From Rhynchobatus australiae (Eukaryota), in the NCBI GenBank assembly GCA_034780895.1, contig JAUZTB010000127.1:57703908-57767907 (forward strand): 64,000 nucleotides of DNA. Reading direction: 5' to 3'. Shown in pieces: positions 15,221 to 64,000 of the stretch (position 1 is its first letter; each line of letters starts with the position of its first letter). The notes under the pieces were generated by a model. It saw nothing but the letters and a program-made list of their open reading frames with translations. It searched no databases and had not been told where the DNA came from. The translations under genes were made by a program, and so were the position numbers.

Positions 15221-15221
15221 T

Positions 15222-30385: not shown

Positions 30386-30392
30386 AAATAAC

Positions 30393-37230: not shown

Positions 37231-37364
37231 AACAGACATATTACAGGTAGCATTACATCACAAAAGAAAAAGCAAGAGGTTTAGGAAATTTCAGAATTCA
37301 GCAACACAGCACCAAGCAATTAATAAGGAAAGCAAAAGAAGAATTCAAGAAAGACTCTAAATGC

Positions 37365-38390: not shown

Positions 38391-39491
38391 GTAACTTCAA
38401 AGATGACATAGAAAATAGATTGAGAGTCAGTAGTTGAACAAGACTAGAGTTACCAAAAAAGTGAAAAAGTTAATGCAACTGAAAATTGATAAAACTGCAG
38501 GAAGTCTTGACACGTATTTCACGGTTTTGAAAGAGGTAATTATGGAAATAGTGGATACTTTGTCACCTTCCAAAGTTCCAGATTCTAGAACAGTCCCCAC
38601 AGACTAAGAGGTTTCAAATAAAAAACACACTATTTAATAGAGGAGTGAAAGCAGGAAACNNNNNNNNNNNNNNNNNNNNNNNNNNNNNNNNNNTATACAA
38701 GATCATGATGAATGGAGAGACATTATTCCTGTTAGGGTGCAGTTCAATGATTTCTGAATACAGATTTTAAGTTGTAGACAAATATACAAGGGGAATGTCA
38801 GGAAAAACAATTTTAAGCAGCAGTTATGACCTGTAATTCACTCCCTGCAAGGATGGTAGAACCAGAATCTATGCCTAGAAAAGAGAATTGAACAGGCGCT
38901 TAAGAAAAACTTGCAAGACCAACCTGGACCACTCTGTTAAGAGCTTGATGGACTGATTGATCTCCTTTCAATCCAAACAATGCTGTGAATTTTATGATAA
39001 AAGAGAACACCTGCTCTTGCAGATTGTCACATTACAAATAATGGTATTTTGAACAAACTTTAACAGCAGCATATGCATATCTAGATTAAACTGAAAATGA
39101 CACTGTACTGTGAAATTACATGCCAGCTTATACAAGAAAAAAATAATTTGCCTGTAGGACAGAGATGGTCAATATATTATCTACTTAGCACATGTAGCTA
39201 AATTGGGATGCCAGTTACAGATAATTGTATTTCAGATGGATAAAAAAAAACAAGTCATGAAAATTGTTGTTGAGCATGTAGTCTCAAATTCACATATTAT
39301 ACTGTTTGTTGGTAAAACATTAAACCGGAGGGAAAAGTACCAGTGATTTTGATTTTTGACAGATGTACTTCTAATAAATATCTACTGCCATTCAGTAAAT
39401 AAGTAACTGTGTGTAATATGAAGTAGCAATGTAGTTAATCAGTGAAACAAAGTGCAGACGACTTTTCAAAGGGCATTCTACACTTCAACGA

Positions 39492-39967
39492 CTTTCTTTA
39501 ATTTTCAATCTTTTTACTAAATTTCAAATTAATAAACACAACAATAGTAATTATACACATGATACAAAGAGATTGGGATCACAATAATAACAGTTAACGT
39601 ATACAAAGAGTAAAATATATAATCTGAACCAATCTCTTGATAATTGAACATGAAAAAGATTTTAAAAGAAATTTGATTATATGAAAAAAAAACAAAATTT
39701 TAAAAAATTAACAAAAATATAGCAATGATAAACAAAAGCTGGGCTGTCGTATTTCTTCGGTTAAAAGCATTATTATGTCATTAACTCTGCTCCTCTATAT
39801 TCGAATTGAAAGTTATTGAAAAGGATTCTGAAAAGGTCAACTTACATCATATGAAAATGCTGGATAAATGGGCTCCAAGTTTCTTCAAATTTAACCGAAG
39901 GATCAATAGTACCACTCCTAATTTTTTCTCCTTGTTTTTATAACCACTTGAACAATTTATTTGAGCT
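39492..39967 (-). mobile_element. L1-clade LINE 3' end (ORF2 C-terminus and 3' UTR)
   Basis: Minus translation EKIRSGTIDPSVKFEETWSPFIQHFHMM*, followed by a T-rich UTR and an A-rich tail. Confidence 0.75.
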
Positions 39968-40052
39968 NNNNNNNNNNNNNNNNNNNNNNNNNNNNNNNNN
40001 NNNNNNNNNNNNNNNNNNNNNNNNNNNNNNNNNNNNNNNNNNNNNNNNNNNG

Positions 40053-42000: not shown

Positions 42001-44044
42001 GTTCATGAATACAACAAATCTAACCCAGACACCCAAAGGTATTAGAAACTACCTTCACTATTAAACAGTGCACAGCTTTCCTTTCGTTGGTATTTGTGCT
42101 GCTGCCAAGTCAGTTCGACAGTTAATAAATATCTGACAGCCAAAAATTAAAAGCTTACAAGTCTTCAAAATATAAACGTATAACTTGACATAATTTTAAA
42201 CGAAATATCTTTTTGAAATCCATTTCCTCAAATACAGTTTCAAATGTTTCATGCACTTCCACATCTCAAAATCTGGCAATTCTCTATCCTTGATTGTATC
42301 TATAAAGGCAGGGTGATATGTAGCCCACATAAGTGGATGGACATTTGGTTGGACTTGGAAGAAAATTCAGCTATCACAAATGTAATAAGGGTTAAAAGCA
42401 CATCTTTTTACTCAAAACAGTGTTGTCAGCCCAGTCTCCAAAATGAGCAGGTATGTTAATCAGCAAGAAGTGTAAAACAAATGGTCTTGAGTCATAGGGT
42501 TCTTGAGGCCTTGAAAAAATAACAAGAGAAATTTGTTTTTTCTTGGAAATGAGCAAGACTGGTTCAGTTGACAATGTAAAATTCATTAAGAAATAATTAG
42601 TTTTAGAATTGTAGCTGACTGAAATGCACAGATGAGAAAAGCAGCATGGGCTTTCTTGATCACACAAATGTCGGTGGTGAACAAGCTCATCGGACTTCTT
42701 GGACCAGAATCTCAATTGATGCCAAGGACCTCAGATTCTCCAGACCAGTAGCTGTAAATCAGAGTCCTTGACAAGCAGAAAGGCATGAGACTTGTTCTTT
42801 CATCAATCATTTTACACTGTTTTAGACTTACTGTTTTGTAGATCTTATATATATCATCTTATCTCATTATACTTTAAATAAATACCCTATAGCAACCTTG
42901 AAGTGTTCTTTCTCCCTCATTGATCCAAATCCTCGAAACCTGCTTATTTCCCGTTACAACAAAACCTTAACACAAAAATAGAAATACAACCGTAGGCTTG
43001 GCTAACACTCTCAACGTCACCTCAGATGTTGCAGCTTCAAACCCCATTCTGGGAAATCTACTATACAAGGAAGAGATTAGCCTAATGTTTGTAGTTACTG
43101 AAATTCTCAGAACTCTCCATAAACAAGTTGCTTTGCCTTCTGCTAAAGGTGAAGCTTCATCTGTAAGAGGTATTGTCTACTTATCCAGAATGCTCCTTTC
43201 ATGGATAAACTCACAATTTGTACTGTTGGCAATACCTGAACAAGCTGGCTCAAATTTCACCCCTCGATTTTAAAACTAAACAGTTTTACCTGGTTGGCAC
43301 CTTTCCTCAATTAACTGAACACCATACTTATGTCCAAAATTCATAATTTCTAAAGAAACATCGGATTTTGTACTGACTAATCTGAGTGATACATACTGAA
43401 AAGGTTCACTCTTTCTGGTGCAATCCTAAGATGCTACCCTGTTAGTACCCTTGATGAACTCCACAATCAAAGAAGCAACAGCACCAAAATGTGTCAGGGC
43501 ACTCCTTTACTCTAACTGGATTCACGTTATGAAGAACTTCTCACAAATTCAGACAAAGCAAACCATGTCTCCCTTAACCAGCTATCACACAACCTGCCCC
43601 CGTCCTCTGTGCCTGGTAACATTTGCTTTGTGTGTTTATATCAAGGCCAGCAGGATGCTCTTGAAATCATACCCAGGGCTAATGTTATTCTCTCAAAACC
43701 AGATAGAAAGGATTGCATAGAAATGAGGAAACACCAATTAATAAAAACAACTGAAATTTCAGCCAGAGTACAGTGGATAGCAACCTGGAGCATTTTATTC
43801 TTCACAGCATCTGCACCTGCCAGAAAGTGCACTATGGATCAGCAAGGAGTTTGTTTTAAGGATGTGTTTTTCAGAAATGCCAACTGCTCAGACAGCGAGT
43901 ACAACTTTCTAGATCAGAAAGTATGAAAATATTGCAAAACCCATCTCACCCCTTTCCCTTTGTAAATATTCTTATTTTGAAAAAGTACCCCCTCCTTTGA
44001 GATTAATTGGTAGAAAAACAATTTGGTACTGGGAGTGAATATAC

Positions 44045-44380
44045 TTATAGAACACAGAACAGTATAGCACAGTACAGGCCCTTCAGCCCACGATGTTATG
44101 CTGATATCGATAAACAACTAATCCCTGATCAATCTAACCATTCCTTCCAACAGAGCCCATAACCATCCATTTTACCTACTTCCATGTGCCTATCCAAAAG
44201 ACTTTCAAAATGTCCCTATTATATCAGCCTCTACCGCCAACCCCAGCAGTGCATTCCAGGCACCCACCACTCTGTGTACAAAAAAAACTCTCTCTGACAT
44301 CTCCACAAAACTTTCCTCCTCTGAACTTAAACTGATGTGGCCATTGCTGCCCTGGGGAAAAGGTGCTGGCTGTCCATTCT
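44045..44380 (-). mobile_element. CR1 (HER1-like) 3' end
   Basis: atagaacacagaacagtatagcacagtacaggcccttcagccc...gcattccaggcacccaccactctg is antisense to 22400-22660. Confidence 0.8.
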
Positions 44381-46899
44381 ACTTGAATTATTATTGACCA
44401 TAAAAATATAACAGTAAGATTTCTTCTTTCAGATGAATCTATTTTTAATGTGACAAAAAAAAACAAAAAATGCAAATGCAATGTCCCTGTGTACAAGAAT
44501 GGATTTCATTCTTGTTTTTTCATGAACCTGATCCAAGTTTGAATGTGACATTCAGCTCGATAGTTATCACTGATCAATCTCCACAATAGTCACAGTTAAA
44601 TCATTGATTTTAAAAGTCAGTGGTTAAAGCTCCAAGAGAGAAACCACCATTTGGGCATAGTAGCCAGCAGTGATTCAACAAGATTCTACTATGCCTCATC
44701 TATAATGTTAATAAAATAGTAGCAGAAGAGTAAAGCGAAATAGAATCACAAAGTTGAAAAAAGCAGGATGAAGTAGGCAAGAAAATACATTGAGATCAAA
44801 GTCAACTGGTTGTTTCAACTACATTATGCATTTTGGCATTAAATTTCAAATCTAGATCATATTGGCTGGATGAAAGAACCTCTATCTGAAGTATGACAAA
44901 GTTTCACAAAGGAAGATTGAGCTGTTTCAACCCAGTGCACAGAGAGCCTAACCTTACGAGAAGATGTGCTTAATTTGGCACTACAGCAGTATTCCAATAC
45001 AGAAAAGCTTCAAGATAGCTGGCTCAAAAACAAAAATGTTGTACTATTGCAGTACAAGGTGCCCTTCTCAGATTGATTACTCTGATGCACCATGTGCATC
45101 ACAGTGGAGAGATATTTGCTCTGCATCAGTTTTTCTACACGTCGTGGAAATGCCTGATACTGCCTTAGGTAATCTTAAATTCACAAGGAAGTGGTATTAA
45201 AAAAGAGGGAAGATCAAAAACATTAGGTCACAACTGGAGAAAGAATTTAAAACAAGATATTCTGATTTCATTAAATAGCTGACATAGCAGAATTGTACAT
45301 ACCCTGATTGAAGAAAACCTTAAAAATAACAAAGGCAAAATTTAAAAAGGCAACTTCACAAGTGCAGTCAAAAAATCCAAAATCTAGCAAGCAACGTACA
45401 TCTTATGTACAGATTTTTAACTACTGTCAGTTCTCACTTAAATGATAATGCATCGTACTGCAAAATAACAATTCTTGAAATTTAGGTGCTATGGTATAAA
45501 CTTCGAATTTTGAAGAGATTCAGCTTTAAGCTATTCAAATTCTATTCCACCATTTTTTCTGAACCTTGACATTGTTTAAAGAAACAAATCAATGCAGTCA
45601 AATAAAGCAATTACTACATATTGCAGGAACCCAAACCTTAGACAAGCCTTTCAAAATTGCAGTGACAAAGAAGATTGGAGATGACATTGTTTTTTTTTAA
45701 TTATACTTTTAAACCAAATATCCTTGTCCAATTTATTTACTAAGGAACTAATGTGCCTAGCACATTATAGCCATTTTGTATTTAAAAAATTAAAATAGAA
45801 TTCTGAAAACAAAATCAGTGTCTAAGATATCATTGATGAACTCATTGTTGACCTCCAGACAAATGAGTAAGTACTTGTGAGATTTTGCATCATCTATGCA
45901 CAACAATCTGCAAAACATTAAATGTCTGCTTCATATTCAAGAAATGCACTTCCTCAGTCCTATGTAGCCATTTGCATCATTAAAAACTCCAAATAAATGC
46001 TTAATGATTGGGATGGCTGAAATTCAAGTTAATTTTAAATTCATCACTTTTTTCTTTCCTACCCTGGACAATAGCATCAGGTTTGTTCAGAGCATATCAA
46101 GTACACTGACCCGATTAAGATGTAGCAACAATTCTGCCAATCATTGTAGGCAAACCAATCAATTTCTAATTTANNNNNNNNNNNNNNNNNNNNNNNNNNN
46201 NNNNNNNNNNNNNNNNNNNNNNNNNNNNNNNNNNNCATTGTAATTAGTTTACCTTGCAAGTTAATTTACTTTTAACAAGTGAAACAGAATTGCATAGAAA
46301 CTGTGGGAAACAAAGAAATGAGTCCAGTGAGTCTTTGTTGGTGCTCATCCTTCACATCTACAATAATACTAATTCCCAAGAACCATTATTCCTGCATCCC
46401 TTGGATCCTTTACTTCAAATTACCTACTTTATTTTTGCAGATAACATAATCTCTACTTCAACTCTGGTACACTACACAGCCGCGAGTCAGCATTTGAAAG
46501 CATTTTTCCCTGCCGCAAATCACTAGGCTGGCATCCCCATTTTCTCACCCTTGAACCTCACACACTGTACACTAGCACTCCTTACTATTACAAGTATCTC
46601 CATCAAATTATCCATTACTTTCCTCATGAAAATCACATCATCTTCAAGTATTTCATTGAATTGGTGCTCCCTCACACCTGGTGATGTAACGGCGAATCTG
46701 GACTACCATTTTGTTGCCTTTAGAGACCTTGAAAAATTGTTTCTGCGACAGCAATTCTTCACTTAACAATAATCCAGTCATGGTACTTTTGTTTTAGTGT
46801 CATTGACACCATGGGGAGTAAGTATCCTTTCAATGTCACAACATTCGCTATTACACAGTTTGCAGGGGACGAGGTAGTTTGAGCCAGATAAATGTAGAT

Positions 46900-48720
46900 G
46901 CATGTACAGATACTGTATCACATACCCCTCGAACTTAATTTTGCTACATCATGTTGTAGTGAACAGGGTGAGTGAAACATGTGATCAACTGCTTTTTGAT
47001 CACAATTTTGTGATTAAATCTGGGATAAACTGGAGATAGAAATGCTTAATATGCCATGGCAACAAGTCTTGGAAGAAAATAAAGAAACATATCACTTCAG
47101 AAACTAAATTATTAATGTGCTTGATGCTGGAGAATGAATGTTTGATATTGGGAGAATAATTCATGGTAATTCTGACAACATCAAAGAGCACTCGCTATGA
47201 CACCTGAGGGGCTATCACAATGCATCATCCTGGAAAATACGGAAAGGCTCTGACCCATAAGGATTATTGACCAACATCAATGCAATGTGCCTCTTAGAAT
47301 GATTGCCCTTCAAGTAATAGCTTGTATGATGACTTAATACAAGGTGAAAATTCATAGCCCATCGGTTTTAATACCAGTTGTGGCTGGTTCCAACATTTCA
47401 GGATGCTTTACAATTTGCATAACATCGAAGTCACGGATGAAGTGGCTTGGATTGATAGTGAAGCACCCAAAAAAAATCCATGTTGATTTGAAAAGTTACC
47501 AAGGTCACTACAAACAGAGGCGAGCCTTTAACAATGAGACAGTTTTAATGGAAATCATCGGGGACATGTTTTCAAAGAGGAAAAGACTGAGCCAGGATTT
47601 AGACCTGCCAATGATCCCTTAACTCTTCTGCTTGTTGGGAATGCTGCAGAAGATTTCAGGTTTAAGGTCCAAGTGACATACCACTCACAGACATGATGGG
47701 CTTTGAAAGGTTGTTCCAAAAATATTTACATGTTATTTGCCAATCAAGAAAGAAAGCCCATACAACAGGAAAAACTTTTCAAATTGTTTTTCTCTAGAAT
47801 GCTGTCACTGCTTGGGAGGAATAATGTGCCAAGATAAATCTTGAGTTTCTGTATTGCATAATTTAGGTAGCGCTGCAGTTAACCTTGACGACTTATCAAT
47901 AAGTATTAAGGTTGCTTCCCTGCCACCCAATACAACTTCAGTGCCCCTCAGCCCACAGATGAAGGTGCAATAGCAATATTTAAGAGTCATTACTTACCTC
48001 ATATCTGCTCCCAAATCATTAAGAGAGCTGAAGGTAAGCCAACAGTCAGGGAATTTTGGCATAACTATGTCTTCAAGGATGAGGTAAATATTGCTTATTT
48101 TTGGGATGAACTTGCATCAGAATGCACAAATTGTTTGTAGCTCAAAGTGCAGCCTGATTCCGCAAATGACTTCAAAGGGCCTGACAACATTGTTCCCAAA
48201 ATGACAGAAAGTCTTCAACTTTAAAGATGTGGAGAAGGCTGCCGTAGCAGAATTTATATTAAAAAATGGTAGAATTGCTCAAATCCTATCAAGAAAAATT
48301 GTGGAACAGGGATTTAATACGATTAGAAATATGACAAACTGAAGAAAAGCAAATGGTTGAAATACACCCCCTCAAGTGTTAACAACAAAATGATTGCCAA
48401 AAGCTTTTCAACTTATTCATGCAGCAATGGAAGTCTTCACCAAGGACAATCCAAAAAGAGAATACAGTTTCAAAGAGAAGAGTGCAACCAATGATGACAT
48501 TAACTACTATGAAGGTGCTTTACCAAAGAAAAAAAAGCAATATGAATTTTTTTCCAGGCTGTTGAGTAAGAGGCAGAATAAAAGGCTGCAGCTGCATCAA
48601 CTCAAACACTCACCCCTCAATCCCATCCTAACCCAATAAATCACCTTCTAAACCATCATGTTGGAATTGCCCTATTAAAATTTATCTTTTTTTTTACGTT
48701 TTGAAATTTTTTATGTTACT
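46900..48720 (+). mobile_element. Tigger/pogo (Tc1-mariner superfamily) DNA transposon remnant
   Basis: Eroded transposase motifs AFNNETV (FNxDETG), PGFRPANDPLTLLLVGNAAEDFRFK, and VASLPPNTTS...QPTDEGAIAIFKSHY. Terminal inverted repeats were not identified. Confidence 0.8.
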
Positions 48721-48894
48721 TAGGAATGTGCACTATCTGTTCAGTATTTAAACTGATGTTTATTTCTAACAAAAAATGTCAAAAAGAACACTGCTCCAGT
48801 TTATATTATTAAAGAATATTAAATTAATTTGCACCACAGCTTTAACTACGTCACAAAGCTGAGCCCTCTGTTTTTTCACAGCTTCCAGTTTCTC

Positions 48895-49010
48895 AGAATC
48901 AAAATTACAATCACCAACGTACGTGATGTGAAACTTGTTTTGCGGCAGCAATATATTGCAGACATAAAATTACTATACATTAAAGAAATAAATTGTGTAA
49001 TTATGATAGC
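48895..49010 (-). mobile_element. Rex1-type LINE 3' tail
   Basis: Antisense to 4780-4865. Confidence 0.55.
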
Positions 49011-50029
49011 TATTCCAAATGACACTGAATTCCACCTGCCACTTTCTTGCCTTGCTGCTGTTTTATCATATCCCTCAGGATTACTTACAATGCTTCCCTA
49101 ATTCAGGAATGTCAGCAAGTCTGGACACCACATTTTGCAGCTCTTTAACCAAACAATTGATATACACAGTGAACAGACACTGTGCCAGAATATAATTTAA
49201 AATTCAGAGGCTTTCAAACATTCTTACTGCCAGATGACAGAAGTGAAACACTGCATTAATTATTAATAATGCTAGATGTTTTTTTTTTCTTGATTGGTTG
49301 CATATTTCAACAAGGAGAGAATTGATACATCCTTCCTCTCACGACAGATGCTGTGTGGACTTATGGTACAGCTTCACCATAGCTGAATGTTAGATTATAG
49401 ATTAGTGTGAGTTTAGTTACTCAAGTTGAAGTATTCATTGCACAAAATTATTAACTACATAATGTAACAATAGTGTCAAGATCACATAATCAAAGAGAAA
49501 AAATATAAAGGAAAGGAAGTTACTGAGACCGTTTTCTTTAACTTAAAAGCTTTCACAAATGTTTTAAACCGAGCTAAAAAAGTGTGGCCATGGTACAAGG
49601 ACAGGTCATATTTCATCAGGGGAAACAAGATTTTATTCCCATTTTCTTATGACATAGGAAGCCACTTGGCCCATCACGATAAACCAGCTCTTAGAGCATT
49701 CCTATCAATTTAATTCCCTCCATTTGTTATCTCCTGCCTACTACCCTAATACGTAGAAAGATAANNNNNNNNNNNNNNNNNNNNNNNNNNNNNNNNNNNN
49801 NNNNNNNNNNNNNNNNNNNNNNNNNNNNNNNNNNNNNNNNNNNNNNNNNNNNNNNNNNNNNNNNCCTAATACGTAGAAAGATAAATTTTAATAGGGCAAT
49901 TCCAACCTGATGGTTTAGGAGTTTATTTGTAGAGTTAGGGTGGGATTGAGGAATAAGTGTTTGAGTTGATGCAGCTGTAGCCTTTTATCCTGCCTCTTAC
50001 TACCCTGATACCTCCTACTACCAGGGACC

Positions 50030-50228
50030 TATGCCGGGTTAATTGACAATTGCCAATTTACCTACCAACTGGCACGGTTTTGGGATGTGGGAGGAAGCTG
50101 AAACGCCTGGGAAAATTCATGTAGTCACAGGGAAAATATTCAAACTCAATAATGGCAACATCCAAGTCATGATCTAATCCAGGATGCTGGAGCTGTGATG
50201 TAGCAGCACAATCTACTGCATAACCGCA
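50030..50228 (-). mobile_element. tRNA-derived V-SINE/HE1-like SINE
   Basis: ttttgggatgtgggaggaagctg...gtcacagggaaaatattcaaactc...gctggagctgtgatgtagcagc, the antisense head and V-domain. Confidence 0.65.
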
Positions 50229-50234
50229 CCTCCA

Positions 50235-50645
50235 GAAGGGGAGATCAGATAGACTGGGCTTGCTTTCCCTGAAGCAAAGGAAGCTGAATGATACCCAACA
50301 GAAGCATACAAAAATTACAAGGCATAGATAGAGTAGATAGTCAAAATCTTTTTTCCATGGTCGGTGTCAAAAACAAGAGGGCCCAGGTTTAAGGTGAGAG
50401 GAAGGAGTCTGAAAGGTCAGTTCCTTATGCAGAGAGTGGATGATATCTGAAATTCACTATCAGAGGTGGTGGTGGAATCTAATACTATTACTACATTTAA
50501 AAGCCATTTAAGACAGGCATATAAATAGGCAAGGCATAGAAGGATATGGTCCTAATGGCAGCAAATGGGATTAGTGCAGATGTACAAAAAGGTCATATGA
50601 ATCTGATGGGCCAAAGGGCCCATTTCTTGGATGTGCAACTCTGAC
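50235..50645 (+). mobile_element. CR1 3' fragment
   Basis: DRLGLLSLKQRKL...KTRGPRFKVR followed by a CR1 tail. Confidence 0.75.
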
Positions 50646-50919
50646 TCGATGTGAACACAGCATCCTAGGGAATACCCTGATACCAGTACCTTTTGGCAGA
50701 TAAGACAATGAAGTCAATTAAGCTGCTGCAGAGTGGGTTTATTAGAAATAGTTGTCGAAAGATACTGTCTGATTACATTTAGTAATCAGCAGTGAGGGTG
50801 TGTCATAATCACTTCACCTAAGGAAGGAGGAACTGCTTGTTGCACCCATGAGCTTCTGATTGATTCATTAGTAGGCTGAGATAATGAGAATAATGCTGGT
50901 CAAGGAATATTTGCCTCCG

Positions 50920-51440
50920 CCCTCATGACTTGCCTATCTGTTCCCCACCTCCTTCCCTTTAATTCCATGGTCCACTGCCCTCTCCTATCAGATTCCTCCT
51001 CCTTCAGCCCTTTGCCTCTTCTACCTATCACCTCTCAGNNNNNNNNNNNNNNNNNNNNNNNNNNNNNNNNNNNNNNNNNNNNNNNNNNNNNNNNNNNNNN
51101 NNNNNNNNNNNNNNNNNNNNNNNNNNNNNNNNNNNNNNCCACTGCCCTCTCCTATCAGATTCCTCCTCCTTCAGCCCTTTGCCTCTTCTACCTCTCACCT
51201 CTCAGCTTCCTACTTCTTCCCCCCCACCCTCCTACCTTCCCCCTGGACTCAGCCATCAACTGCCTGCATGTCTCCTCCCCCAACTTTATTATTCCAGCTT
51301 CTGCCCTCTTCCTTTCCAGTCTCGACCTGAAACATCGACTGTTTATTTTCCTCCATCGATGCTGCCAGACCTGTCGGACTTCCTCCAGCATTTGCTGTGT
51401 GTTGCTCCAGATTCCAGCATCTGCAGAATCTCTTGTGGCT
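50920..51440 (+). mobile_element. Penelope-like terminal repeat with internally deleted hammerhead
   Basis: Closely similar to 32420-32780; reads cagtc-tcgacctGAAACatcgactg with CTGATGA missing. Confidence 0.8.
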
Positions 51441-52327
51441 CCATATTTGCCAACTCCCTAACATAGGGTTTTAGGCTTACAAAGAGAACAACTGTAACCA
51501 AGATTTCTTTGAAGTTTTACTGATGCTATCCTCAACACCTTGGTTAGCATAAAAAGACTAAGAAGAAGGCAACCTTTGCTGCACGGTGCCCAATGTAGAG
51601 ATACCTTGGCATTTACTTTTGACTGAGCAATCCATCATGAGGGAATCATCACATCTGTCGGAAGTTATTTTTTTATTTTACATTATTATACAGTGATAAT
51701 CAGATAACATTTCTTCACAAACCACTGAATTACTCTTTTTTTGACCCTTTGACCTCTGAATTAAATTAAAAATTTACAACAATAACAGATCTGAAAGTGA
51801 GGCAAACCATTGATGGCCACTTATTTTTTTTAAATGTCTTGAAAGTTTTCTCATTGGTTGATCATGAAAGCTAGTCACCATCAGTTCTGGTCAAATTAGA
51901 GTAACAGCAATAACCTATAACAGGACTTATAGAAAAATAACCTGCACAGAAATAAATTTCTTTTAACAGAAAAAGATCATCAACATATTGGTGCAGTCTT
52001 GTATGTTATTCCAGTGCTTGCAAAGTCAACATATTTGGTTCTGTCAAGCATCAGATTTTTTCTAGTGCCCCTGTACACAGATGTCACAGCACTCACTTTC
52101 ATGTTTATTAACAAGAAAACCTTGCAACCGTGTTAAGTATTACACCTGTCCTTACACCTCCTCTCTCATCACGATTCAGGGCCCTAAACAGTCCTTCCAG
52201 GCAAGGCAGCACTTCACATGTGAATCAATCAGTGTCATTTATTGCATCCTATGCTTCCCGTCTCCGCAACGTTGGTAAGACTAGATGCAGACTGGCATTC
52301 ACTCCGTCGAGCACCTTCACTCTGTTT

Positions 52328-52558
52328 TGTTATTGGTATTGGTTTATTATAGTCACTTGTACCGAGGTACAGTGAAAAGCTCATCTTACAAACCGATCGT
52401 ACGGGTCAATTCATTATACGGTGCAGTTACATTGAGTTAGTACAGAGTGTATTGATGTAGTACAGGTCAAAAAAAACAATAACATTATGGAGTAAAGTGT
52501 GCCAGCTACAGAGAAAGTGCAGTGCAATAAGGTGCAAGGTCACAACAAGGTATATCGT
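52328..52558 (-). mobile_element. Young Rex1-type LINE 3' tail inserted in the Penelope copy
   Basis: tattggtattggtttattatagtcacttgtaccgaggtacagtg... is antisense-similar to 37060-37225. Confidence 0.65.
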
Positions 52559-52858
52559 NNNNNNNNNNNNNNNNNNNNNNNNNNNNNNNNNNNNNNNNNN
52601 NNNNNNNNNNNNNNNNNNNNNNNNNNNNNNNNNNNNNNNNNNNNNNNNNNNNNNNNNNNNNNNNNNNNNNNNNNNNNNNTCCACCTTCTTCGGCCCTTTG
52701 TCACTTCCACCAATCACCTCCCAGCTTCTTACATCATTCCCACTCTCCCTTTCCCCCACCTAGCCATCTTCCCCCCTCACTGGATTCACCAATCACCCAC
52801 CAACTCTTGCTCAACCCCCTCCCCCCACCTTTTGGAACTGGCTATCTCCCTTTCTTTC

Positions 52859-52896
52859 CAGTCCTGATGAAGGGCCTCGACCCAAAATGTCAACTG
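52859..52896 (+). ncRNA. Minimal type I hammerhead ribozyme motif (degenerate)
   Basis: cagtc-CTGATGA-agggcctcgaccc-AAAAT-GTC-aactg. Confidence 0.6.
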
Positions 52897-55785
52897 TCCA
52901 ATTTCCTCGATAGATGCTGCCTGACCGGCTGAGTTCCTCCAGCATTTTGTGTGTTGCTCCAGATTTCTAGCATCTGTAGTCTTTGTGTCTTATGTTTACA
53001 TTTATGTGGAACTTTTCATGATCTCACACCACCCTAGTGCTTTAAAGCCAATAAGAAACAATTGACAGCAAGCAATTAACTCAGCCAAGCCATTTGTAAA
53101 CAATGATAACACTTTCAGGATTAACCTTTAACCTACTTTCTATTTTAGCTTTCTTGTGCAAACAACAGTTATAATTTTTGATGTTATAATCTACACACAC
53201 ATTTGAAGTTAAAACCATGGTAAAGAATTGTATATCAGGTTGCATAGAATACCTTCACCTGCAAGATGTTGGTTAAAATGATACGGTTTGAGAATTGAAA
53301 TTTCTGTCACTTAAGATGGCAGAAACCAAATGTCAAAGATTGAGTTCTCTCGAGCACCACTGGTCACAGACTCAAAGTAACCACTGGATAACAATGGGAA
53401 TTCACCCTAGGAAAAGTCAAGTTTAGGTGAAAGCAGAGACAATGATCTTTCCAGATTCTCCAAAATAGATGAAAATCCTCAATGATTTAATTTTTCTGCC
53501 ACAACATTAATTTACTTATACAGATGGTATTTCCAGATCTAACACTAGGCATTATTCCATAATCTGTTTAAATAAAATTTTAAGCCAACAATGTCCTATA
53601 AAACTGCAATGAACCAACTCTTGTAAGACTAAACAATAAAGCAAATTAGAAATGTGTCCATTGCCTACAAGTTTCTGTAAACTCAATTGAAAACCTGAAT
53701 CCACTTCCTCAATCTGTTGAAAAGTTTTCAATTCAGTGTTATTAAAATTTAAGTACAAAATCCTAAACTGATGCACTTAATATTAAGGCAAATTGCTTTC
53801 GGCAGGACAAAGGGATGCAACAAACCAACAAACACCACCTCAAAGTGTGTGATGCAGATACTGGACAATACAGATGCAAAAAATTGTTTTGTATCAATTG
53901 TTCAAATTTCATTGCACAACTCAATGACTCACAGATCCAAATTAGTGCTCCACCTACTGATTCATACTGTAGTATTACATCCCAAAATAATTCAAATGTA
54001 CAACTGCCACTCCAGCAATAATCCTCGCAGCACACCAGTAGACACGGTCTCCCCTCCTTAAAATGACCTGTGCATTCCTACTCTATTTTCTGTTCATTAA
54101 CCAATCCTCAATCTATGCCAATGTATTGGCCCTCATATGGCACTCANNNAATTTTGTTTAGTCAAATGTCACAAGCTGTATTCCCCAGTGGAAAATGTCT
54201 GAATGGTACTGCATTTCCATTGATGAAGATAGCTTGTAACACTTGTCAGTAGTTACTCAGCAAATTTGACACAATGTTGTAAAAATTATCTTAGAACAGA
54301 GAATTTCTCATAACCAAACTGGCCTCTTCATTAACTAACAAAGTTAAACATAAAACCGTTAAAATTTAGTAAAACAGTTATTTCCAAACACTATTGTAAA
54401 CTATTGTGCTAAAACTGTCTAAAATCAAAAAAGTGTTTATTGATTTGAATTCCTGATCAACAATCCCATCATAAACAGTGTTCTATCAAATGACAATGCT
54501 TAAAATATCGCCTTAACATTTAGAATTTTCAGAATGAATTTCCAAAGATATTTTTGAAGCAAGAAATATTGAGGAACTGCACAATTGCATATTTTATAAA
54601 TGCATGCTGCTTATCTGCTATTTGAATTGAACTGAAAAACTGTACATCTCGTGAATAAAAAAATATTTTAATTTGTCAGAAAAACATTTTGTTTAAGATT
54701 CAATGGAATAATGTGGCTGTTGTATGAATTCATGACAAATCGGTTCAAATATTCATATTTAATTCAAATATAAAAATTCTCAAGCTATTAACCATTCACA
54801 ATAGAATGCCATCTTTTGCTGTGTACTTAAACAACTCAGGAGTACATCAGAAGCATTTTGCAAAAATGTTATCCCTTTGGTAAACTCTGCAATGAAAAGC
54901 TGCCAATGCAGTTAAGGCCTTTTTAAGGAGGAAATTACAGCTCCAGTGACAATGATCTGAAACCTGCTGTAATTTTTGAATATTTAAGGAGTTTTGCAGC
55001 AATATAATTTCTGCATCCATTAGCTGTGCAAGTTATTTCACAGGCAGTAGAAGTAATTAAAATTTTTCAAGGAATACATTCTTACAATAAGAAATAAAAT
55101 ATTCCAAGGAATATTGCTTACTAATTCAAACTGCAATCATGTCACTGCTATGCTTGTTAATGTGCAAATTTGTAGTTTGCTGCTAATGAACCATACCAAG
55201 TCCAATATATATTTTGTCCATTAAATCTAGATCTGCTACATCATAATAGCTGAGAACAAAGTACCAAAAATTTTCTTTTCAAATAATTCATGAGTCCATA
55301 TATTCTAAAAACATATTCAAAGCTTAATGAACATATCTAACTCTGTAAGGACCAAGTTAAAATAGCTGACTAGATTTGTATCCAGTGTATTGTAAATATC
55401 TACAAACATGTTTTTTCAAAGCCTTCATTAAATTCAAGTTTGTGGGAGATAGTATACACAAAATATTGCAATATGTTAAATACTGTTTTTGCTTGTGTTT
55501 AAAATGGGCTAGAATTTGTTGCTAACCACTTGCTATCCACAGAAATGGAAAGCCACAACTTCTGGGATAACCTCATGTTGACCTGCTGGTGAGCACTGTG
55601 CTGATCCAAAATGGCAAGCTCAGGCATGGCAACGTGATCTTGTACAACTTAATGCCAATACATGTGTTGCTCTGAAAAGCCTAACAATGAAATAACTGAA
55701 AACATTGACAGCTGGCTAAACAATACCTCAAAGCTTTGCTTACTGTCAAAACTGCCAGAGACTTCCAAATACTTCTGAATGGCCT

Positions 55786-55893
55786 GACATCATAACCATT
55801 CATAAACTATTAATAATATCACTTAAAAATTCCTAATTCAGATATCATAACCATTCATAAACTATTAATAATATCACTTAAAAATTCATAATT
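55786..55893. repeat. 55-bp tandem duplication
   Basis: ga(c/t)atcataaccattcataaactattaataatatcacttaaaaattc(c/a)taatt occurs twice with 2 mismatches. Confidence 0.9.
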
Positions 55894-58494
55894 ACTTGCA
55901 GCTGTTTCTTTCCATTCAAATGAAATAGACGATGTTCCTCTGCAAATCCAATGGGCAGTAATGATAACTAGAGAACAGCAGGAAGTTAGTATAGCACTGC
56001 TGGACTCCATGTGTCAGGAACCCCAACTCCCTGGCACACACTGTGGGAGGAAAATGCTGGCTTTTCAGTGCTGGCATTTCCCATTAAATTCTAGCTAAAT
56101 ATTTCAATGGCCATTTCTTATGTATCATAATGATCCAACAATTAACCCTCATGATCATTAAACATGTATCAAACTTTTTTTTTTACTTGGCAATAATGGC
56201 TTTGTCAAAGACACATATTTCACTGAAGAGTGAATTTACAGCTGGAAATATGAGATGTTAAAAAGTTTACAGGTGTGATTTTATTTTAGAAAACACAGTA
56301 CCCCCTCCAGGACTGGAAAACAACAACTCTTGGTTAGTGCTTCCTCACTGTACTGCCATAGAGCCTGCTGCTCTCTGGACCATGGGCTCTTTGGGTCACC
56401 AAGACTGGCACAGGACATCTTGACCAGGCAAATTCAGGCGTGAGGATTCCCAATCAACAAAATCCGGCCCAATTTCTGAAGACAATGGTACATAATTATT
56501 TAACACTTGTGTGCATGTGAATAATAAAAACACCTTTTGAATGCAACTTCCAGAGACACCACAAAGTAAGACATTCTTGCTACAAGTAAAACAAAGATAA
56601 TCCATTTTCACACCCAATACACTACACTTTTTTTGGACTACATTTGAAATCTGCCTCCCCCAAAAAACCCAAGTTAGTTTACAAAGTATTTTCCTCATCA
56701 TACTATGCAGTATTTTTGGAGAGAGGAAAACAGAGTTAATGCCACAAGTCACTGAGCGTCCACTGATTCAAAACATGAATTGTTTCTCTCTACACAGAAG
56801 CAGCCTAACTTGCTGACGATTTCCAGGATCAACAGTACTGTGTTTGTATTAAAGCTAAATTACTTATATTTCCAATTCTGCTTGTTTTTTGTTCATTCAA
56901 ATCTTCAAATAATTTTTGTTGATTTATATGGTGATAACGAGATATACAAGATTTTGAATGGGCTGAATGCTAAAAGGAGGCTTCTGCCTCGTTGGGGAAG
57001 GGTTGATGACAAGGATAAAAATAACAGGATAAAGGATCTCTCACTGAAGACTGAATCAAGGAAGAATTTCTTCTTGGAGAGCTGTGAATCTTTGGAAGCC
57101 ACCAAGCCACACAGATGTTTGTAAGGATCACAGGGTGATGCATATAACTTCTGCACTTCTATCCCCACAGTGATTTTGTTTGAATCATAACCATAAAAGC
57201 ATAGCTACACAAAGTAAAATCATGGATGCCCTATCAGCATTAACAATCAAATCTTCATAACCCCTTTCACTGCTGTTTAGTACAACTTATTTATTCCTGA
57301 GGTAAATCCTTGTCCTCTAACTCAAAAATATAAATTGTTTAAACAAGCTATGATCCAATAGGTATGTGATGAGAGAAACATTTTGATCCTTTTTCCTTTG
57401 TAAATCTGAGTTTGTTGGCCTGGATTTTGCTGACATTTCTTAGTCAACTCTGCAACACCAATCAGAATGCAGCCACAATGACAATATTAAAGATTACTCA
57501 ATTAAAAAAATAATACCCACCAATCCATTCCCATTGCCAATGGTCATCTTAAATTTATCAGCTTTCAACGTGATTCAACCTGAAAAATTAAGGCAGCACA
57601 TTGACAAACTACAGTGCATAATTAAGAGGTTTGGATTTAGGGCACATTAAGGTGGAATTAATGTAAAAAGTATCTTGGCTCTAACCCTACTTCATACCTG
57701 ATCTAGAAATGCTCAATACAAACTACAACCAAACAATGAAAATATTCAATTCCACATCATCTTGAATGCCAGGCCTCCACCAATACCCCTACCACCACCA
57801 TATATTAATCAAATAATAAAATGTGTGACAACGCTTAATCCCACATTACCTTAATAAACAGTCAACATTTGCAAGGAAGAATTTTAACTGCTAACACACA
57901 ATTAACACGTGTTTATGGGGGCAGTAAAGAAATGCTATCAGGGAATGATGACCTAAATTTTCCCAGCTAAGGACCATTGCCCACATTCACCAGTCACATC
58001 TATTTCCCCTGAATTTACCTTCTCCAGATCTCCAAGTCGATCTTGCGGGTTCATACCATCCCCAAACAGCAGCAGCAATGCCACAATTGATAAAATGGGA
58101 TGGCATGGCGGAACAGGAAAAGCCACATCCATGAACCACTTCTGAAAATCTTTCACAGCTAAAGCACATTTCAGCTCTGTTCTATCAAGGCTATCAAAGC
58201 TTTCCAATCATATGTGCAAAACCTATCAACATAAAAAAAATTCAAATGACAGTAAGTGACCCCTCAAACTTGCTCCTCCATTCAATGAGTTCATGGATAA
58301 CTTGATATGTGAACTCAGTTCAATTTTCTTCACTTGTCACCATGACTGTTTATTTCCCTATTTCCAAAAATCTATCTGGGCCTCGAATATACTTAATAAC
58401 TCACCATCCTTGGCTCCCTGCAATACAGAATTTCAATGATTCAAACCCTTAAGAAATTTTCCTCACCCCCCCCCAGTCACGAATAAAAGACTAT

Positions 58495-59089
58495 TGTTAA
58501 ATACCAGCAACAACAGAAACACACTGAGACATGTATAAGTGTNNNNNNNNNNNNNNNNNNNNNNNNNNNNNNNNNNNNNNNNNNNNNNNNNNNNNNNNNN
58601 NNNNNNNNNNNNNNNNNNNNNNNNNNNNNNNNNNNNNNNNNNAGATGCAGAGAGATAATAGAGAGTATCGTGGCCATCCACACCAACTACCTGTTTCCTT
58701 CTACAGGTCAACAACCAAGCGAACTCCACTTCTTCATCTCAATGTGTCTGCCATACTCTAGAGCATCCGTGCCATGGCCGTTCACACCAACTACCTGTTT
58801 TCTTCCACAGGTTACTGACAAAGTGAACTCCACCAGATAACTCTCAACAATCCATATGTGGATTGCAGTGACAGTGACAGTTATTGTTTCTCATCCATTG
58901 ACAGAGAAAACAAGCAGGCTGGTGTTTCTCTCTCTCTTTGTTCTTCTGTCTCTCTCTCTCTCCTTCAGACTGACTCTGACTGGTTGTTTCGACAACAACG
59001 TCATGACGTTCTTTATCTTCTATTGACGTAAGCATGCCACACACACGCAATCTAAAAGGGACACTCACTAATAATCCTAGTCCGTAACA
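58495..59089 (-). mobile_element. Solo LTR
   Basis: TGTTA...TAACA termini with a perfect 4-bp TSD CTAT (58491-58494 and 59090-59093). Internal duplication of about 58 bp (58672 and 58776). Orientation is inferred. Confidence 0.8.
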
Positions 59090-60111
59090 CTATTACCCTG
59101 TTGTTTTGGTCCATCAAATTACCCCTTACAGGGAAACCTCATTATATTTATTTTGTCAAGTCAACTCAATTTTATTTTAGTTTTCAGAATCACCAAATAA
59201 ACCAACAAAATCACAAAGACACTTCTGAAAACTTCAAATAATTTAAAAAACATTCTTTACACAAGAAATACCGCAGCTGCCAGAAATGCTCAATAAGTTA
59301 GGCTACTTCTGTGGAAATAGAAATACAGTTAACATTTCAAGTTAAGGACCATCCCACCACCCAAAATATTAACTCATAACTCTCTATAGATGTTCCATCA
59401 CATCCTGAGGATTTCTACAATTTTCTGTGTTTATGTCCACAAGAATCACACAATGCCCATTCCATTGAATAGCCTTTTGAATCCTGCAGCAGATTTAACC
59501 TGGCACATGATCCAAGAGCAGACTCCCAGCAGTGTTAAGACTGGGGCTTCTGCATTTGCTCATGTGTTTTTAAACTTAGAAGCATTTGGACTAAGAAATG
59601 TCAACAAATTCCAGGCCAACAAACTCAGATTTACAAAGGAAAAGGGATTAAAATGTTTCTCTCATCACATACCGATTGGATCATAGTTTGTTTAAACAAT
59701 GTATATTTTTGAGTTAATGAAGACAAGGATTTACCTCAAGAATAAATAAGTTATACTAAACAGCAATGAAAGGGGTTATGAAGATAGTTCTTGATAAGAA
59801 AACATACAAAACATTTAAAATGCAGGTTTGAGCAACTTTTCAATCACAGCTGCAACAAACAGTGATAAACATGGGCAATAAATAATGCTTCACAATTTTA
59901 TCATAATCCAAATGCATGCCCCTCTTAATAAAACTTGCAATGCACAAAGGCCAATTATTTCAAATTGGTCAAATTCATCCAATTATTTTATATATTATAT
60001 TACATGTATATATAAACAGCTGGAGTATTTGAATAAATTCCAACTGATATTAGTCAATAAGCCGATAATGTACTGTTCCAAGAATAAATGAAACTAATCA
60101 GCAGTACTCAC

Positions 60112-60132
60112 CGACACTTTGCTTCCAGTTAT
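60112..60132 (-). CDS. DIAPH2: 21-nt coding microexon (ITGSKVS, phase 0/0), probably the alternative 7-aa insert of the formin DIAPH2 N-terminal GTPase-binding region
   Basis: Minus strand reads ...actgcattaaccactgcattcag|ATAACTGGAAGCAAAGTGTCG|gtgagtact, with a canonical CAG acceptor, a consensus GTGAGT donor and length divisible by 3. The peptide resembles the recalled mammalian DIAPH2 insert IVGSKV(T/L) between ...ATAKS and GGLKNSK... The exon is well supported; the gene name rests on recall. Confidence 0.7.
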
Positions 60133-60220
60133 CTGAATGCAGTGGTTAATGCAGTGTAAATTAATATTGTTGGGAGAGGCAAAAAAAAATTAACAAAACA
60201 GCAACATTATTAGTGAGCAC
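60133..60220 (-). promoter_or_regulatory. Microexon 3' splice region: distal branch point, polypyrimidine tract and UGC enhancer motifs
   Basis: On the minus strand: CACTAAT (around 60209-60215), then TTTTTTTTTGCCTCTCCC, then two TGC motifs within about 20 nt of the AG. No other AG occurs for about 85 nt upstream of the acceptor. Confidence 0.65.
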
Positions 60221-61699
60221 AGCTTTTTGATGCTTAACCATAATGCAGTTTAGTTACAGTATTAGTAATACATTTCAGCCCTGAACAAGATTTTCATGCT
60301 GATCTGATTTAGAAAATATTAAAAACAATATCTTAACTATTTTCTTTGCACTTTCAGCAGGTTTCACAGTGAAATATTACCAATTTTCATGCATATACAA
60401 GGCAAATTATTGGTTCAGAAATTTAATCCCAGCAAAAAACATTACATACAATCCCAATATTGAAAACATATGACACTCATCTCACATGTCTCCTCCACGC
60501 CAAATTGTTCATTGAACACCACTTAGAATTAATAAGTGATGAAGTCACTTCCAGAAAAACCTTGTTATATCACATAGCCCCTTTTTTTTAAGCAAAGTGC
60601 GCTTATCATGCACCAAACCCAAAACAAACTCAGCTTTAGTGGCCCAGAAAATGAATCTGAAATGAACAGTATATGTAAAACATTAACAGGAACAGCCAAT
60701 ATCTCAAATTTTAGTGATTTTTTCAATTGTTATATTTGCTTTACAGTTGTTTATTATGCAAATACTTTATTGCATGTTTGCTTTTTTAAATATGGTTGCA
60801 TGCACTTCTATTTAATTACTGGTTTTGTTGCATTTATTGCATCAAAAATAAAGTCAGCTGCTTTAGTTTATCCTTTTTTTGTTGCTCATTACTGCCAATC
60901 TGACTTCACTAATAGCAGTTTGTGGCTGACAAATTAACTTAGCTTGTTTACTTTATAAAGTTTACTTTATGAAGGTTTTAAATATGACATGGAAGTCAAA
61001 AATAGCCTGGGCTATGTGAAACAGGAAACCGGAGACCATCTGAAATGTTTACCNNNNNNNNNNNNNNNNNNNNNNNNNNNNNNNNNNNNNNNNNNNNNNN
61101 NNNNNNNNNNNNNNNNNNNNNNNNNNNNNNNNNNNNNNNNNNNNNNNNNNNNNGAGACCATCTGAAATGTTTACCAAACCTGGGTTAATACCAAATATCA
61201 TTGGTGAGCTGAATCACACTGGCAGCTATCCTGCAATTCTTCCGGGAACTAGCTGTACTGCATGTATCAGTGTGTTCTGCACTTCTATGCTCACACGTGG
61301 TTGTAAAGGAGTATGGAATTCCAACTGAACTTAATTTTATTTTAATTACATGTTATCAATTAACAGTTGCTAAGTGATTTTAAATATTTAATTTTTGTTT
61401 GAATTGTTTTAAATCAATTTTACAAGATTTCATGAATTGTCGAAGGCCTCAATGGGTCCATTCCTTGAGCTAGCAGCAGAACAGAGACCAAGGTCATGGA
61501 GAGCTATAGATTTAAAGGTCTCATATGGAAGGATAGCACAGGAAGTGGGTCAGACTGAGCATGATTTGGCTCATAATTTTGTGGCATACTGAAGCAGCAT
61601 ACAACTTATCCATTTTGCTTTAAGTTATACAGTGATTTCCAGAGGAAAGCAGAATGACTTTACCTTTTATTGCTAGGTATTAGAAATGGCACTATTCCT

Positions 61700-64000
61700 C
61701 CAGAGAATAGCACGGTAAGGCTAGTGGGAGATTTCAATTTTCCTGGTATCAACTGGGCCACCCAGAGTGCCAAGGGCCTGGATGGGGAGGAATTTATGCA
61801 GTGCATCTGAGATTGTTTCCTCACACAATATATTGAGGAACCTACTTGAGAAGGAGCAATACTGGACCTCCTCTGAGGGCACGCGGCAGGCCAAGTAACT
61901 GAAGTGGCAGTTGGGAAGCGCTTTGGACCCAGCGACCACAGTTCTATCAGTTTTAAAATAGTTATGGAAAAATATAGAACTGGTCCACAGGTTAAAATCC
62001 TGAACTGGAGCAGAGTCAACTTTGAGGACATTAGGCAGGGGTCGACTGGGTGACTTTCTTTAAAGGCAAAGGAACAGTTGTCAAGTGGGGAGCTTTTAAA
62101 AGGGTCATATCAAGAGTCCAGGGACAGCACGTTCCTGTTAGGGTGAAGGGTAGACAGACCAAGTTTAGGGAACCCTGTCTGATGAGAGATATTGAGGCTC
62201 TGGCCAGGAAAGAGGAAGCGCACATCACATTTAGGGAGCTGGGTACAAACGAGTCCCTTGACAGATATAAAAAGTTTAACACCAGGCTTAAGAGGAAAAT
62301 CAGGAGGGCAAAAAGAAGCTATGCGATGGATTGGCAGGCAGGGTTAAAACCCAATCCTAGGAGAGTCTTCAGTTATATTAAGTCAAAGGGTGACCAGGGA
62401 GAGACTAAAAGACCATCAGGGCTGTCTACACATGGAGCCACCAGGGGATGGCCAAGATTTTTAGTGTCTATTTCTCCTCGGCGTTTACTAAGGAGAATAT
62501 CACAAGATACCAGAGAAATGGGGGTAATAAGTCGTGAGGTCTTGGATCATATGCGTATTATGAAGAAAAATGTATTTGCATTCTTGAAGCGCATGAAGGT
62601 GGGCAAATCCCCAGGGCCTGACTAAGTGCACTCCCTGACCTTATGGGAGGCCAGGGAAGAAATCGCAGAGGCTCTTGTAGAGATAGCTGCTTCATCGTTA
62701 GCCACTGGTGAAGTTCTTGAAGATGGGTGGGTGGCTAATGTTCCTTTGTTCAAGAAGGGTAGGAAGGACAGGTCAGCAAACTACAGACCAGAGAATCTGA
62801 CTTCAATTATAGAGAAGTTGTGGAGGGAATTCTGAGGGACAAGATCCACCATCACTTGGATGGTCAAGGCCTTATCTGGAATAGTCAGCATGGTTTTGTG
62901 TGTGGGAGGTCACGTCTAACAAATCTTTGAAATTTTCGAAGAGGTAATTAAGGGGCTAGATAAAGGTAGGGCAGTGGATGTTGTCTACATGGATTTTAGT
63001 ATAGACTTTCATAAGGCCTTTGACACTGTCCCACATGGCAGGTTGATCTGGAAGATGAGGTCACATGGGATTCAGGGGGCGGTAGCAAGGTGGATTCAGA
63101 ATTGGCTCAATGATGGGAAGCGGAGTGATAGTTGAAGGTTGATTTTTTGACTGGAGGCCTGTGCCAAGCAGTGTGCCCCAGGGGTCAGTGTTGGGACCTC
63201 AATCATTCATTATTTATGTAAATGATTTGGATATGAACATACATCGTACGATTAGCAATTTTGCTGATGATACTAAATTTGGGGATCTTGTTGATAGTGA
63301 AGCAGCTTACAATGAATTGCAAAGATCAGTTTGCAATTCCCTTTATCAGTTAGGGAGATGGGTTGAGGAATGGCAAATGGATTTCAACTGAGCTAAGTGT
63401 GAGGTGATGCATTTTGGACAGTCAAACCAGGGTAGAATTTGTACAATGAATGGCAGGGCACCGACAAGTGTTGTGGAACAGAGGGAGCTGGGAGTACAAG
63501 TACACAGTTTGCTGAAAGCCACCATGCAAGTTGACAGGGTGGTGAAGAAGGCTTTTAATATGCTGGCCTTCATCAGTCAGAGCATCAAGTTTAGGAGCAG
63601 GAACATTACGTTGCAGTTATACAAGTTGTTGGTGAGGCCGCACTTGGAGTATTGTGTACAGTTTTGGTCACCGTGTTACAGGAAAGACACTGTCAAGCTG
63701 AAGGGGGTGCAGAACAGATTTACGAGTATACTGCCTGGACTGGAGGGCCTCAGTTAAAGGGAGAGGTTGACTATGCTGGATCATTTTTCCTTGGAACATA
63801 GGAAAATGAGGGGTGACCTCAGAGAAGTTTATAAAATCATGAGGGGTATGAATAAGGTGGACGGTCAGTCTTTTCCCCGGGGTTGGGGAGCCCATAATTA
63901 GAGGTCACAGATACAAGACAAAAGGGTAGAGATATAAGAGACCTGAGAGGTAACTTCTTTAACAGAGAGTGGTGAGTACCTGGAATGAGCTGCCAGAGGA
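61700..64000 (+). mobile_element. CR1 LINE ORF2 (endonuclease C-terminal part and RT), pseudogenised, runs off the window
   Basis: VGDFNFP, SDHS, KSPGPD, NYRP, YMDFS, VPQGSVLGP, NFADDTK and LYKLLVRPHLEYCVQFWSP, with multiple stops and frameshifts. Confidence 0.95.

What the first reader, a model, noticed from the sequence alone, without database searches (positions are those of the whole stretch)
60112..60132. Lone 21-nt microexon (ITGSKVS), likely the DIAPH2 7-aa insert conserved in a cartilaginous fish
Seen: a CAG|21 nt|GTGAGT cassette on the minus strand that the ORF track cannot show; it is the only convincing host exon in 64 kb. Recalled knowledge: mammalian DIAPH2 has an isoform insert IVGSKV(T/L) in its Rho-GTPase-binding region, and DIAPH2 has very long introns. 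Inference: this is the orthologous microexon, so it would predate the split of bony and cartilaginous fishes. Gene models often miss exons this small. The next exon would lie more than 60 kb away, or in an N gap.
Basis: partly seen in the sequence, partly recalled or inferred. Interest (0 to 1): 0.75.

Follow-up and report, generated by a model that had tools for sequence, protein, structure and literature searches.

The report
Ancient DIAPH2 seven-residue microexon
A 21-base stretch with exact splice signals encodes ITGSKVS, matching an optional seven-residue piece of the actin-building protein DIAPH2 already annotated from bony fish to humans, so this is likely an ordinary copy of a known mini-exon, in what is probably a shark or ray, whose function appears untested.

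Summary
Confirmed and largely known. The cassette CAG|21 nt|GTGAGT lies at 60132-60112 (minus strand) and reads ITGSKVS. It has an 88-nt AG-free zone, a distal branch-point-like CTAAT, a U-tract and two UGC motifs. Annotated DIAPH2 isoform pairs differ by a 7-residue insert at one junction (...ATAKS|GGL[KR]N...): ITGSKV[A/T/V/P] in teleosts, ITGSKVV in a caecilian, IVGSKV[T/M/P] in mammals and birds. The window matches the non-amniote forms 6/7 and differs only at the most variable position. The human exon is a published 21-nt micro-exon with 4.8-kb and 118-kb flanking introns. The window fits that (at least 3.9 kb and 60 kb free of DIAPH exons) and shows minus-strand transcription skew. Splice signals alone, or six matching residues alone, are not significant; both at the same boundaries are (about 1e-4). 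Not shown: the flanking exons, splicing in this species, the host clade (recalled from repeats), and whether shark annotations already hold it. Published evidence argues against neuron-only inclusion. The insert falls in the linker between the Rho-binding helices and the DID, so it likely tunes Rho activation; this is untested. Modest interest.

The parts
60112..60132 (-). 21-nt phase-0 microexon encoding ITGSKVS, inferred orthologue of the DIAPH2 7-aa insert (human c.447/c.448 junction)
   Evidence: insert family; human exon
60133..60135 (-). 3' splice site CAG
60106..60111 (-). 5' splice site GTGAGT
60135..60222 (-). 88-nt AG-free zone upstream of the acceptor
60209..60213 (-). distal branch-point-like CTAAT (-81); function inferred
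60172..60200 (-). U-rich/pyrimidine tract ending in TCTC (-45), set back from the AG
60139..60153 (-). two TGC (UGC) motifs at -21 and -9, of the kind bound by SRRM3/4 at many microexons
   Evidence: motif role from passages of bioRxiv 10.1101/2024.09.17.613571
60049..60054 (-). downstream ACTAAT at +58 (QKI-type core; label recalled, from no call)
60133..64000 (-). inferred upstream intron (at least 3.9 kb; human 4.8 kb); no DIAPH exon found
   Evidence: human sizes
1..60111 (-). inferred giant downstream intron (at least 60 kb; human 118.5 kb), with retroelements and 3.7 kb of N; minus-strand T+G skew

Best explanation
The 21 bases encode ITGSKVS between exact splice signals and are very likely the orthologue of the optional DIAPH2 (mDia3) microexon, which when spliced in would lengthen by seven residues the linker between the formin's Rho-binding helices and its autoinhibitory DID domain and so likely tune its activation by Rho GTPases. 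Shown: the cassette and its 3' splice-site layout; the insert's sequence, position and optional use in annotated DIAPH2 proteins of bony vertebrates; its place in the GBD-DID linker by alignment to mDia1 constructs. Inferred: the host gene (flanking exons lie outside the window), the host clade, splicing in this species, and broad rather than neuron-only inclusion. The effect on Rho binding or release of autoinhibition is a hypothesis (about 0.4 on its own). The confidence below is for orthology.
For: Of 342 DIAPH2-type proteins held, 200 carry a 7-aa insert at this junction, 141 carry none and 1 has a 6-aa oddity (the split is biased by my queries). Across 10 distinct 7-mers, I1, G3 and K5 are invariant, S4 and V6 occur in 9 of 10, and position 7, where the window differs, is the most variable. 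Same-species pairs with and without the insert differ in length by 7 aa: Clarias P0410/P0385, Gouania P0415/P0362, Antennarius P0424/P0359, Pogona P0469/P0330, Pan paniscus P0448/P0371. Human 21-nt micro-exon chrX:96018098-96018119 in DIAPH2 (PMC4317164 Supplemental File 1, one row). Human RNA mismatches at c.447+1 (A), +4 (G) and c.448-2 (C) read as Ile, Val ... Thr (PMC8632122 supplement rows); the window likewise starts with A and has C second to last. Intron geometry fits. T+G skew favours the minus strand in 15 of 16 4-kb blocks. The insert aligns to a gap in mDia1 chains 1z2c/3eg5 just after KREMVSQYLHTSK and before the start of DID-only constructs. M115 and Q118 of that helix contact RhoC, and a short linker joins GBD to FH3 (PMC4111664 passages).
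Against: No flanking exon was placed (no genome held). No chondrichthyan DIAPH2 protein was among the named hits listed (120 of 1489; 120 of 850), so the exact ITGSKVS was seen in no protein. A 6-residue match alone is common: 18 exact 6-mer hits to 9 DIAPH proteins in six frames. Conservation in the one related genome is weak: no listed change at 60168-60286 against 23 further out, P 0.03 at best and 0.33 if the 2 unlisted changes fall there. The contig covering the exon has 9 changes, of which only 4 are listed, so identity of the exon there is not established. Position 7 varies freely (A, T, V, P, M, S), as a plain spacer would.
Confidence: 0.94

Rival explanations
1. The cassette is a chance look-alike in intronic or intergenic DNA and is never spliced.
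For: Simple splice filters pass 0.32 cassettes per window by chance. One plus-strand cassette passes the strict filter too. 6-mer matches to DIAPH proteins occur 18 times.
Against: The known insert falls exactly on an AG|21|GT unit, expected 8.7e-5 per window. Even allowing for several hundred other microexons that a reader might have recognised (my estimate), it is also one of the two best-built cassettes of the window. Strand skew and intron geometry agree.
Confidence: 0.03
2. It is a paralogous microexon of DIAPH3 (or DIAPH1) at the same junction.
For: Six teleost DIAPH3 gene models carry an insert at this junction, one of them similar (FFVGSRVIC).
Against: Those inserts have no common sequence, and 5 of the 6 begin with V, as read-through of a GT donor would give (inference). 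60 other DIAPH3-type proteins show none. Of 47 further DIAPH3 cluster members, 36 show none and 11 did not match the pattern. Four DIAPH1-type proteins show none. I-x-G-[SN]-K-[VI] was seen only in DIAPH2.
Confidence: 0.02
3. On regulation only: it is an SRRM3/4-dependent neural switch, skipped outside neurons. This is compatible with the best explanation on identity.
For: The layout (distal branch point and pyrimidine tract, UCUC, UGC at -21 and -9) is that described for SRRM3/4 microexons. The human exon was reported by a study of micro-exons in brain transcripts whose discovery set also held muscle and nerve samples.
Against: The human insert is read in A375 melanoma cells (12 of 12, 7 of 7 and 10 of 10 reads that overhang the junction; this is not a PSI). 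A VastDB-based survey of the 15 mammalian formins found six neural exons in DAAM1 and FMNL1/2/3 and none in DIAPH2 (PMC12056172 section 6). The table of 708 zebrafish neural exons lists diaph2 only for a 63-nt exon. Absence from such tables could also reflect low read coverage.
Confidence: 0.2
4. On function only: the insert is a tolerated spacer with no measurable effect on DIAPH2 activity.
For: It lies in a linker that DID-only constructs leave out. Positions 2 and 7 vary. Both isoforms are annotated in many species.
Against: Length is fixed at 7 and I1, G3, K5 are invariant from teleosts to mammals and in this window.
Confidence: 0.3

Closest known systems
DIAPH2 21-nt microexon of bony vertebrates (human chrX:96018098-96018119 hg19, PMC4317164; RefSeq isoforms such as XP_053361625 Clarias, XP_028315106 Gouania, XP_033800692 Geotrypetes, XP_054962498 Pan paniscus)
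   Same: 21 nt, seven residues, I-x-G-S-K-V core, minus-strand host with room for a short upstream and a very long downstream intron
   Different: Last residue S was seen in 0 of 200 inserts; flanking exons and inclusion not shown here; probably a different vertebrate class
DAAM1 neural microexon (PMC12056172)
   Same: In-frame formin microexon that lengthens a linker and is reported conserved from sharks to humans
   Different: That one lies in the FH2 linker, is 9-10 aa, neural-specific, SRRM3/4-dependent and functionally tested. This one lies in the GBD-DID linker, is apparently not neural-specific, and no test of it was found
DIAPH2 exon 2 (33 nt, RBFOX2-regulated; PMC10730836)
   Same: Alternative cassette in the N-terminal part of the same gene
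   Different: A different exon (chrX 96735758-96735790 in that paper's table)

Membership tests
DIAPH2 7-aa microexon | 21 nt, frame-preserving, canonical AG/GT | tested here: met
   human length
DIAPH2 7-aa microexon | Peptide I-[TVI]-G-[SN]-K-[VI]-x | tested here: met
   ITGSKVS against 10 distinct inserts
DIAPH2 7-aa microexon | Lies between the exon ending ...ATAKS and the exon starting GGL[KR]N on the same strand | not testable with these tools
   no genome held; neither exon is in the window, which fits the human intron sizes
DIAPH2 7-aa microexon | Inside a gene transcribed from the same strand | tested here: inconclusive
   minus-strand T+G skew in 15 of 16 blocks; indirect
DIAPH2 7-aa microexon | Spliced into mRNA in this species | not testable with these tools
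   offered contigs only; a 21-mer is shorter than the 31-letter index words
SRRM3/4-dependent neural microexons | 3-27 nt; distal branch point and pyrimidine tract; UGC near the AG | tested here: met
SRRM3/4-dependent neural microexons | Neural-enriched inclusion and SRRM3/4 dependence | tested here: inconclusive
   no data for this species; published data on orthologues point against
DIAPH3/DIAPH1 paralogous microexon | A conserved insert at the same junction in DIAPH3 or DIAPH1 | tested here: not met
   no chondrichthyan DIAPH3 was available
Cartilaginous-fish genome | Taxon-diagnostic sequence | not testable with these tools
   organism names are coded; the clade rests on recalled repeat types (CR1-like, Penelope/hammerhead-like). 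T at position 2 fits non-amniotes

The most novel reading that the evidence does not exclude
The microexon is a jawed-vertebrate invention unique to DIAPH2: absent from five hagfish/lamprey DIAPH2-like models and from DIAPH1/3, and kept at exactly seven residues since before sharks and bony fish split. It would act as a broadly used, non-neural splice switch, despite a neural-type 3' splice site, that resets the reach between the Rho-binding helices and the DID and so changes which GTPase opens DIAPH2 or how fast.
Probability: 0.25. Interest if true: 0.5.

Novelty: new member of a known kind. Interest (0 to 1): 0.22.

Why it matters
It probably dates the DIAPH2 insert to the common ancestor of jawed vertebrates and anchors an otherwise invisible gene in a 64-kb exon desert. 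That age is expected for vertebrate microexons (shark-to-human conservation is reported for DAAM1 and for many others), so it would not surprise a specialist. The open point is function: the insert sits in the GBD-DID linker of a Rho effector, both isoforms are widely annotated, and my searches found no study of it. Structures and assays built on the short form may miss a common isoform.

Tried and rejected
No whole genome is held, so flanking exons could not be placed. Sequencing runs: no RNA holder listed. Of three contig sets laid, X1 did not cover the exon, X2 was identical over 59810-61050 and may be the source, and X3 was too close and too incompletely listed to test conservation. A degenerate scan for the genomic cassette in metagenome contigs found 0 matches. 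Two searches meant to reach shark or ray DIAPH2 were filled by amniotes and teleosts; the 150 representatives listed had none with the insert. Small alignments to bias a profile were misaligned and not used. RNA fold of the acceptor region was unremarkable (z -0.44). No Rfam match in the window. No TGCATG within 140 nt upstream or 400 nt downstream. An AlphaFold job on an insert-bearing perch DIAPH2 fragment had not finished, so no model is used. Literature: 'IVGSKV' 0 papers; DIAPH2+microexon 2 papers, neither studying this exon; listings showed no study of it. Supplements of PMC7821500 and PMC12626420 (one file not searched) had no diaph2 row. The supplement of PMC12871342, bioRxiv supplements, VastDB and subscription papers could not be seen and may list the exon, also in elephant shark. 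The meaning of the asterisk on the DIAPH2 row of PMC4317164 was not found.

Full report
Observation. The minus strand at 60132-60112 reads ATAACTGGAAGCAAAGTGTCG, preceded by CAG and followed by GTGAGT, and translates to ITGSKVS. Upstream lie an 88-nt AG-free zone, CTAAT at -81, a U-rich tract ending in TCTC at -45, and TGC at -21 and -9. This is the layout described for many vertebrate microexons (bioRxiv 10.1101/2024.09.17.613571, passages).

Chance. The window has 150 YAG|3-30|GTRAG cassettes. Simple filters leave only this one, but 0.32 would be left by chance (24 of 100 simulations). Stricter, after-the-fact filters give 0.023 (7 of 300), and one other cassette, on the plus strand, passes them. 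Exact 6-mer matches to nine DIAPH proteins occur 18 times in six frames. Neither the splice signals nor the peptide is convincing alone. Their coincidence is: a 21-nt AG/GT unit encoding I[TVI]G[SN]KV is expected 8.7e-5 times among the 446 such units. That figure is for one pre-named peptide; allowing for several hundred recognisable microexons (my estimate) still leaves a few percent, before counting that this is one of the two best-built cassettes.

Host gene. No genome is held, so I obtained DIAPH proteins through a fish DIAPH locus found in metagenome contigs, a representative search and a hagfish DIAPH2-like query. Among 342 proteins with the DIAPH2 junction, 200 carry a 7-residue insert between ...QYISATAKS and GGL[KR]N..., 141 carry none and 1 has a 6-residue oddity; the proportions reflect my queries. 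The forms are ITGSKVA (112), ITGSKVT (26), ITGSKVV (7, including a caecilian), ITGSKIM (2) and ITGSKVP (1) in non-amniotes, and IVGSKVM, IVGSKVT, IVGSKVP, IIGSKVP and IIGNKVP in amniotes. The window equals the main non-amniote forms at six positions and differs at the most variable one. Five same-species isoform pairs with and without the insert differ by seven residues in length, so the exon is annotated as optional.

Human data. A supplement row lists a 21-nt micro-exon in DIAPH2 at chrX:96018098-96018119 (PMC4317164; I also saw passages and the legends file). RNA 'variants' in A375 cells at c.447+1, +4 and c.448-2 are what reads carrying an unannotated insert would give (my reading), spelling Ile, Val at the start and Thr at the end (PMC8632122 supplement rows; passages). 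These coordinates give introns of about 4.8 kb upstream and 118.5 kb downstream. The window has no other DIAPH exon (best tblastn E 0.36-0.65 with BLOSUM62, 0.26 with PAM30) in 3.9 kb upstream and 60 kb downstream, though 3,749 bases are N. T+G skew favours the minus strand in 15 of 16 blocks, as in a transcribed intron (own knowledge; inserted elements can also skew).

Paralogues and age. Six teleost DIAPH3 models have unrelated inserts at the same junction, five starting with V; 60 DIAPH3-type proteins there, and 36 of 47 further cluster members (11 did not match the pattern), have none. Four DIAPH1-type and five hagfish/lamprey DIAPH2-like proteins have none, which may be an annotation gap. 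No chondrichthyan DIAPH2 surfaced among named hits, so I cannot say whether shark annotations already hold the exon. The host clade rests on recalled repeat types, not on a test; I put it near 0.85. A related genome is about 97-99% alike here, too close and too incompletely listed to show conservation.

How it likely works. Aligned to mDia1 chains 1z2c and 3eg5, the insert falls in a gap right after KREMVSQYLHTSK and about eight residues before DID-only constructs begin. A review states that the GBD is three helices joined by a short linker to the FH3/DID, that M115 and Q118 contact RhoC, and that Rho binds both parts, possibly in two steps (PMC4111664, passages). Inclusion would therefore lengthen the tether between the two halves of the Rho-binding surface without changing either fold. 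I infer that it tunes GTPase engagement or release of autoinhibition; this is untested, and a neutral spacer remains possible. My structure job did not finish.

Regulation. The acceptor looks like an SRRM3/4 target, but orthologues do not look neuron-only. They are read in melanoma cells, are not among the six neural formin exons (PMC12056172, section 6), and are not in the zebrafish neural table, which lists diaph2 only for a 63-nt exon (PMC12626424, supplement row and passages). Coverage cut-offs could hide it from such tables. An ACTAAT at +58 (recalled as a QKI core) is a lead. The RBFOX2-regulated DIAPH2 exon is another exon (PMC10730836, passages and supplement rows). PMC9870134 and PMC13632457 were seen as passages and did not treat this exon.

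Verdict. Real, very likely the DIAPH2 microexon, a new member of a known kind. Shark-to-human age is ordinary for microexons. What is left of interest is an untested, fixed-length insert at the Rho-activation hinge of a formin. Interest 0.22.

Noticed in passing
window 14931-18883 (+): Gypsy-type LTR retrotransposon antisense to the inferred host gene: paired LTRs (78% alike over one gapped alignment), 4-bp ACCT target duplication, primer-site-like sequence after the 5' LTR, protease, RT and RNase H hits spread over several frames with an N gap.
   Followed up: partly
window 31315-31341 (+): 27-nt cassette with an 87-nt AG-free zone and GTAAGA donor passes my strict filter, but has stops in phase 0 and lies on the opposite strand; probably chance.
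   Followed up: partly
window 35145-35169 and 52864-52888 (+), repeats at 32411-32886, 50920-51441, 52684-52990: Hammerhead-like CTGATGA...AAAC cores within a dispersed repeat family next to Penelope-like ORF fragments (labels recalled); no Rfam match at gathering score.
   Followed up: partly
window 57251-57445 and 59589-59785: A 197-bp, 93% identical inverted repeat pair, 0.3 and 2.7 kb downstream of the microexon donor; could pair in the pre-mRNA.
   Followed up: no
window 3873-4670 (+), 62035-63757 (+): LINE fragments: RVT_1 hit at 3873; CR1-like pieces near the right end (label recalled), which lie in the one block with reversed skew.
   Followed up: no
P0122/P0274 (hagfish) and P0121/P0271 (frog DIAPH3): A 12-residue optional insert just before LDRF is shared by hagfish DIAPH2-like and frog DIAPH3 isoform pairs, suggesting that the N-terminal 'exon 2' cassette predates the DIAPH duplications.
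   Followed up: no
P0035, P0060, P0064, P0073, P0102, P0115: Teleost DIAPH3 gene models with inconsistent 2-9 residue inserts at the same junction, probably annotation artefacts.
   Followed up: partly
L001 666-761 (+): A teleost DIAPH3 DAD exon sits in a contig of the metagenome collection, i.e. probably host DNA.
   Followed up: no
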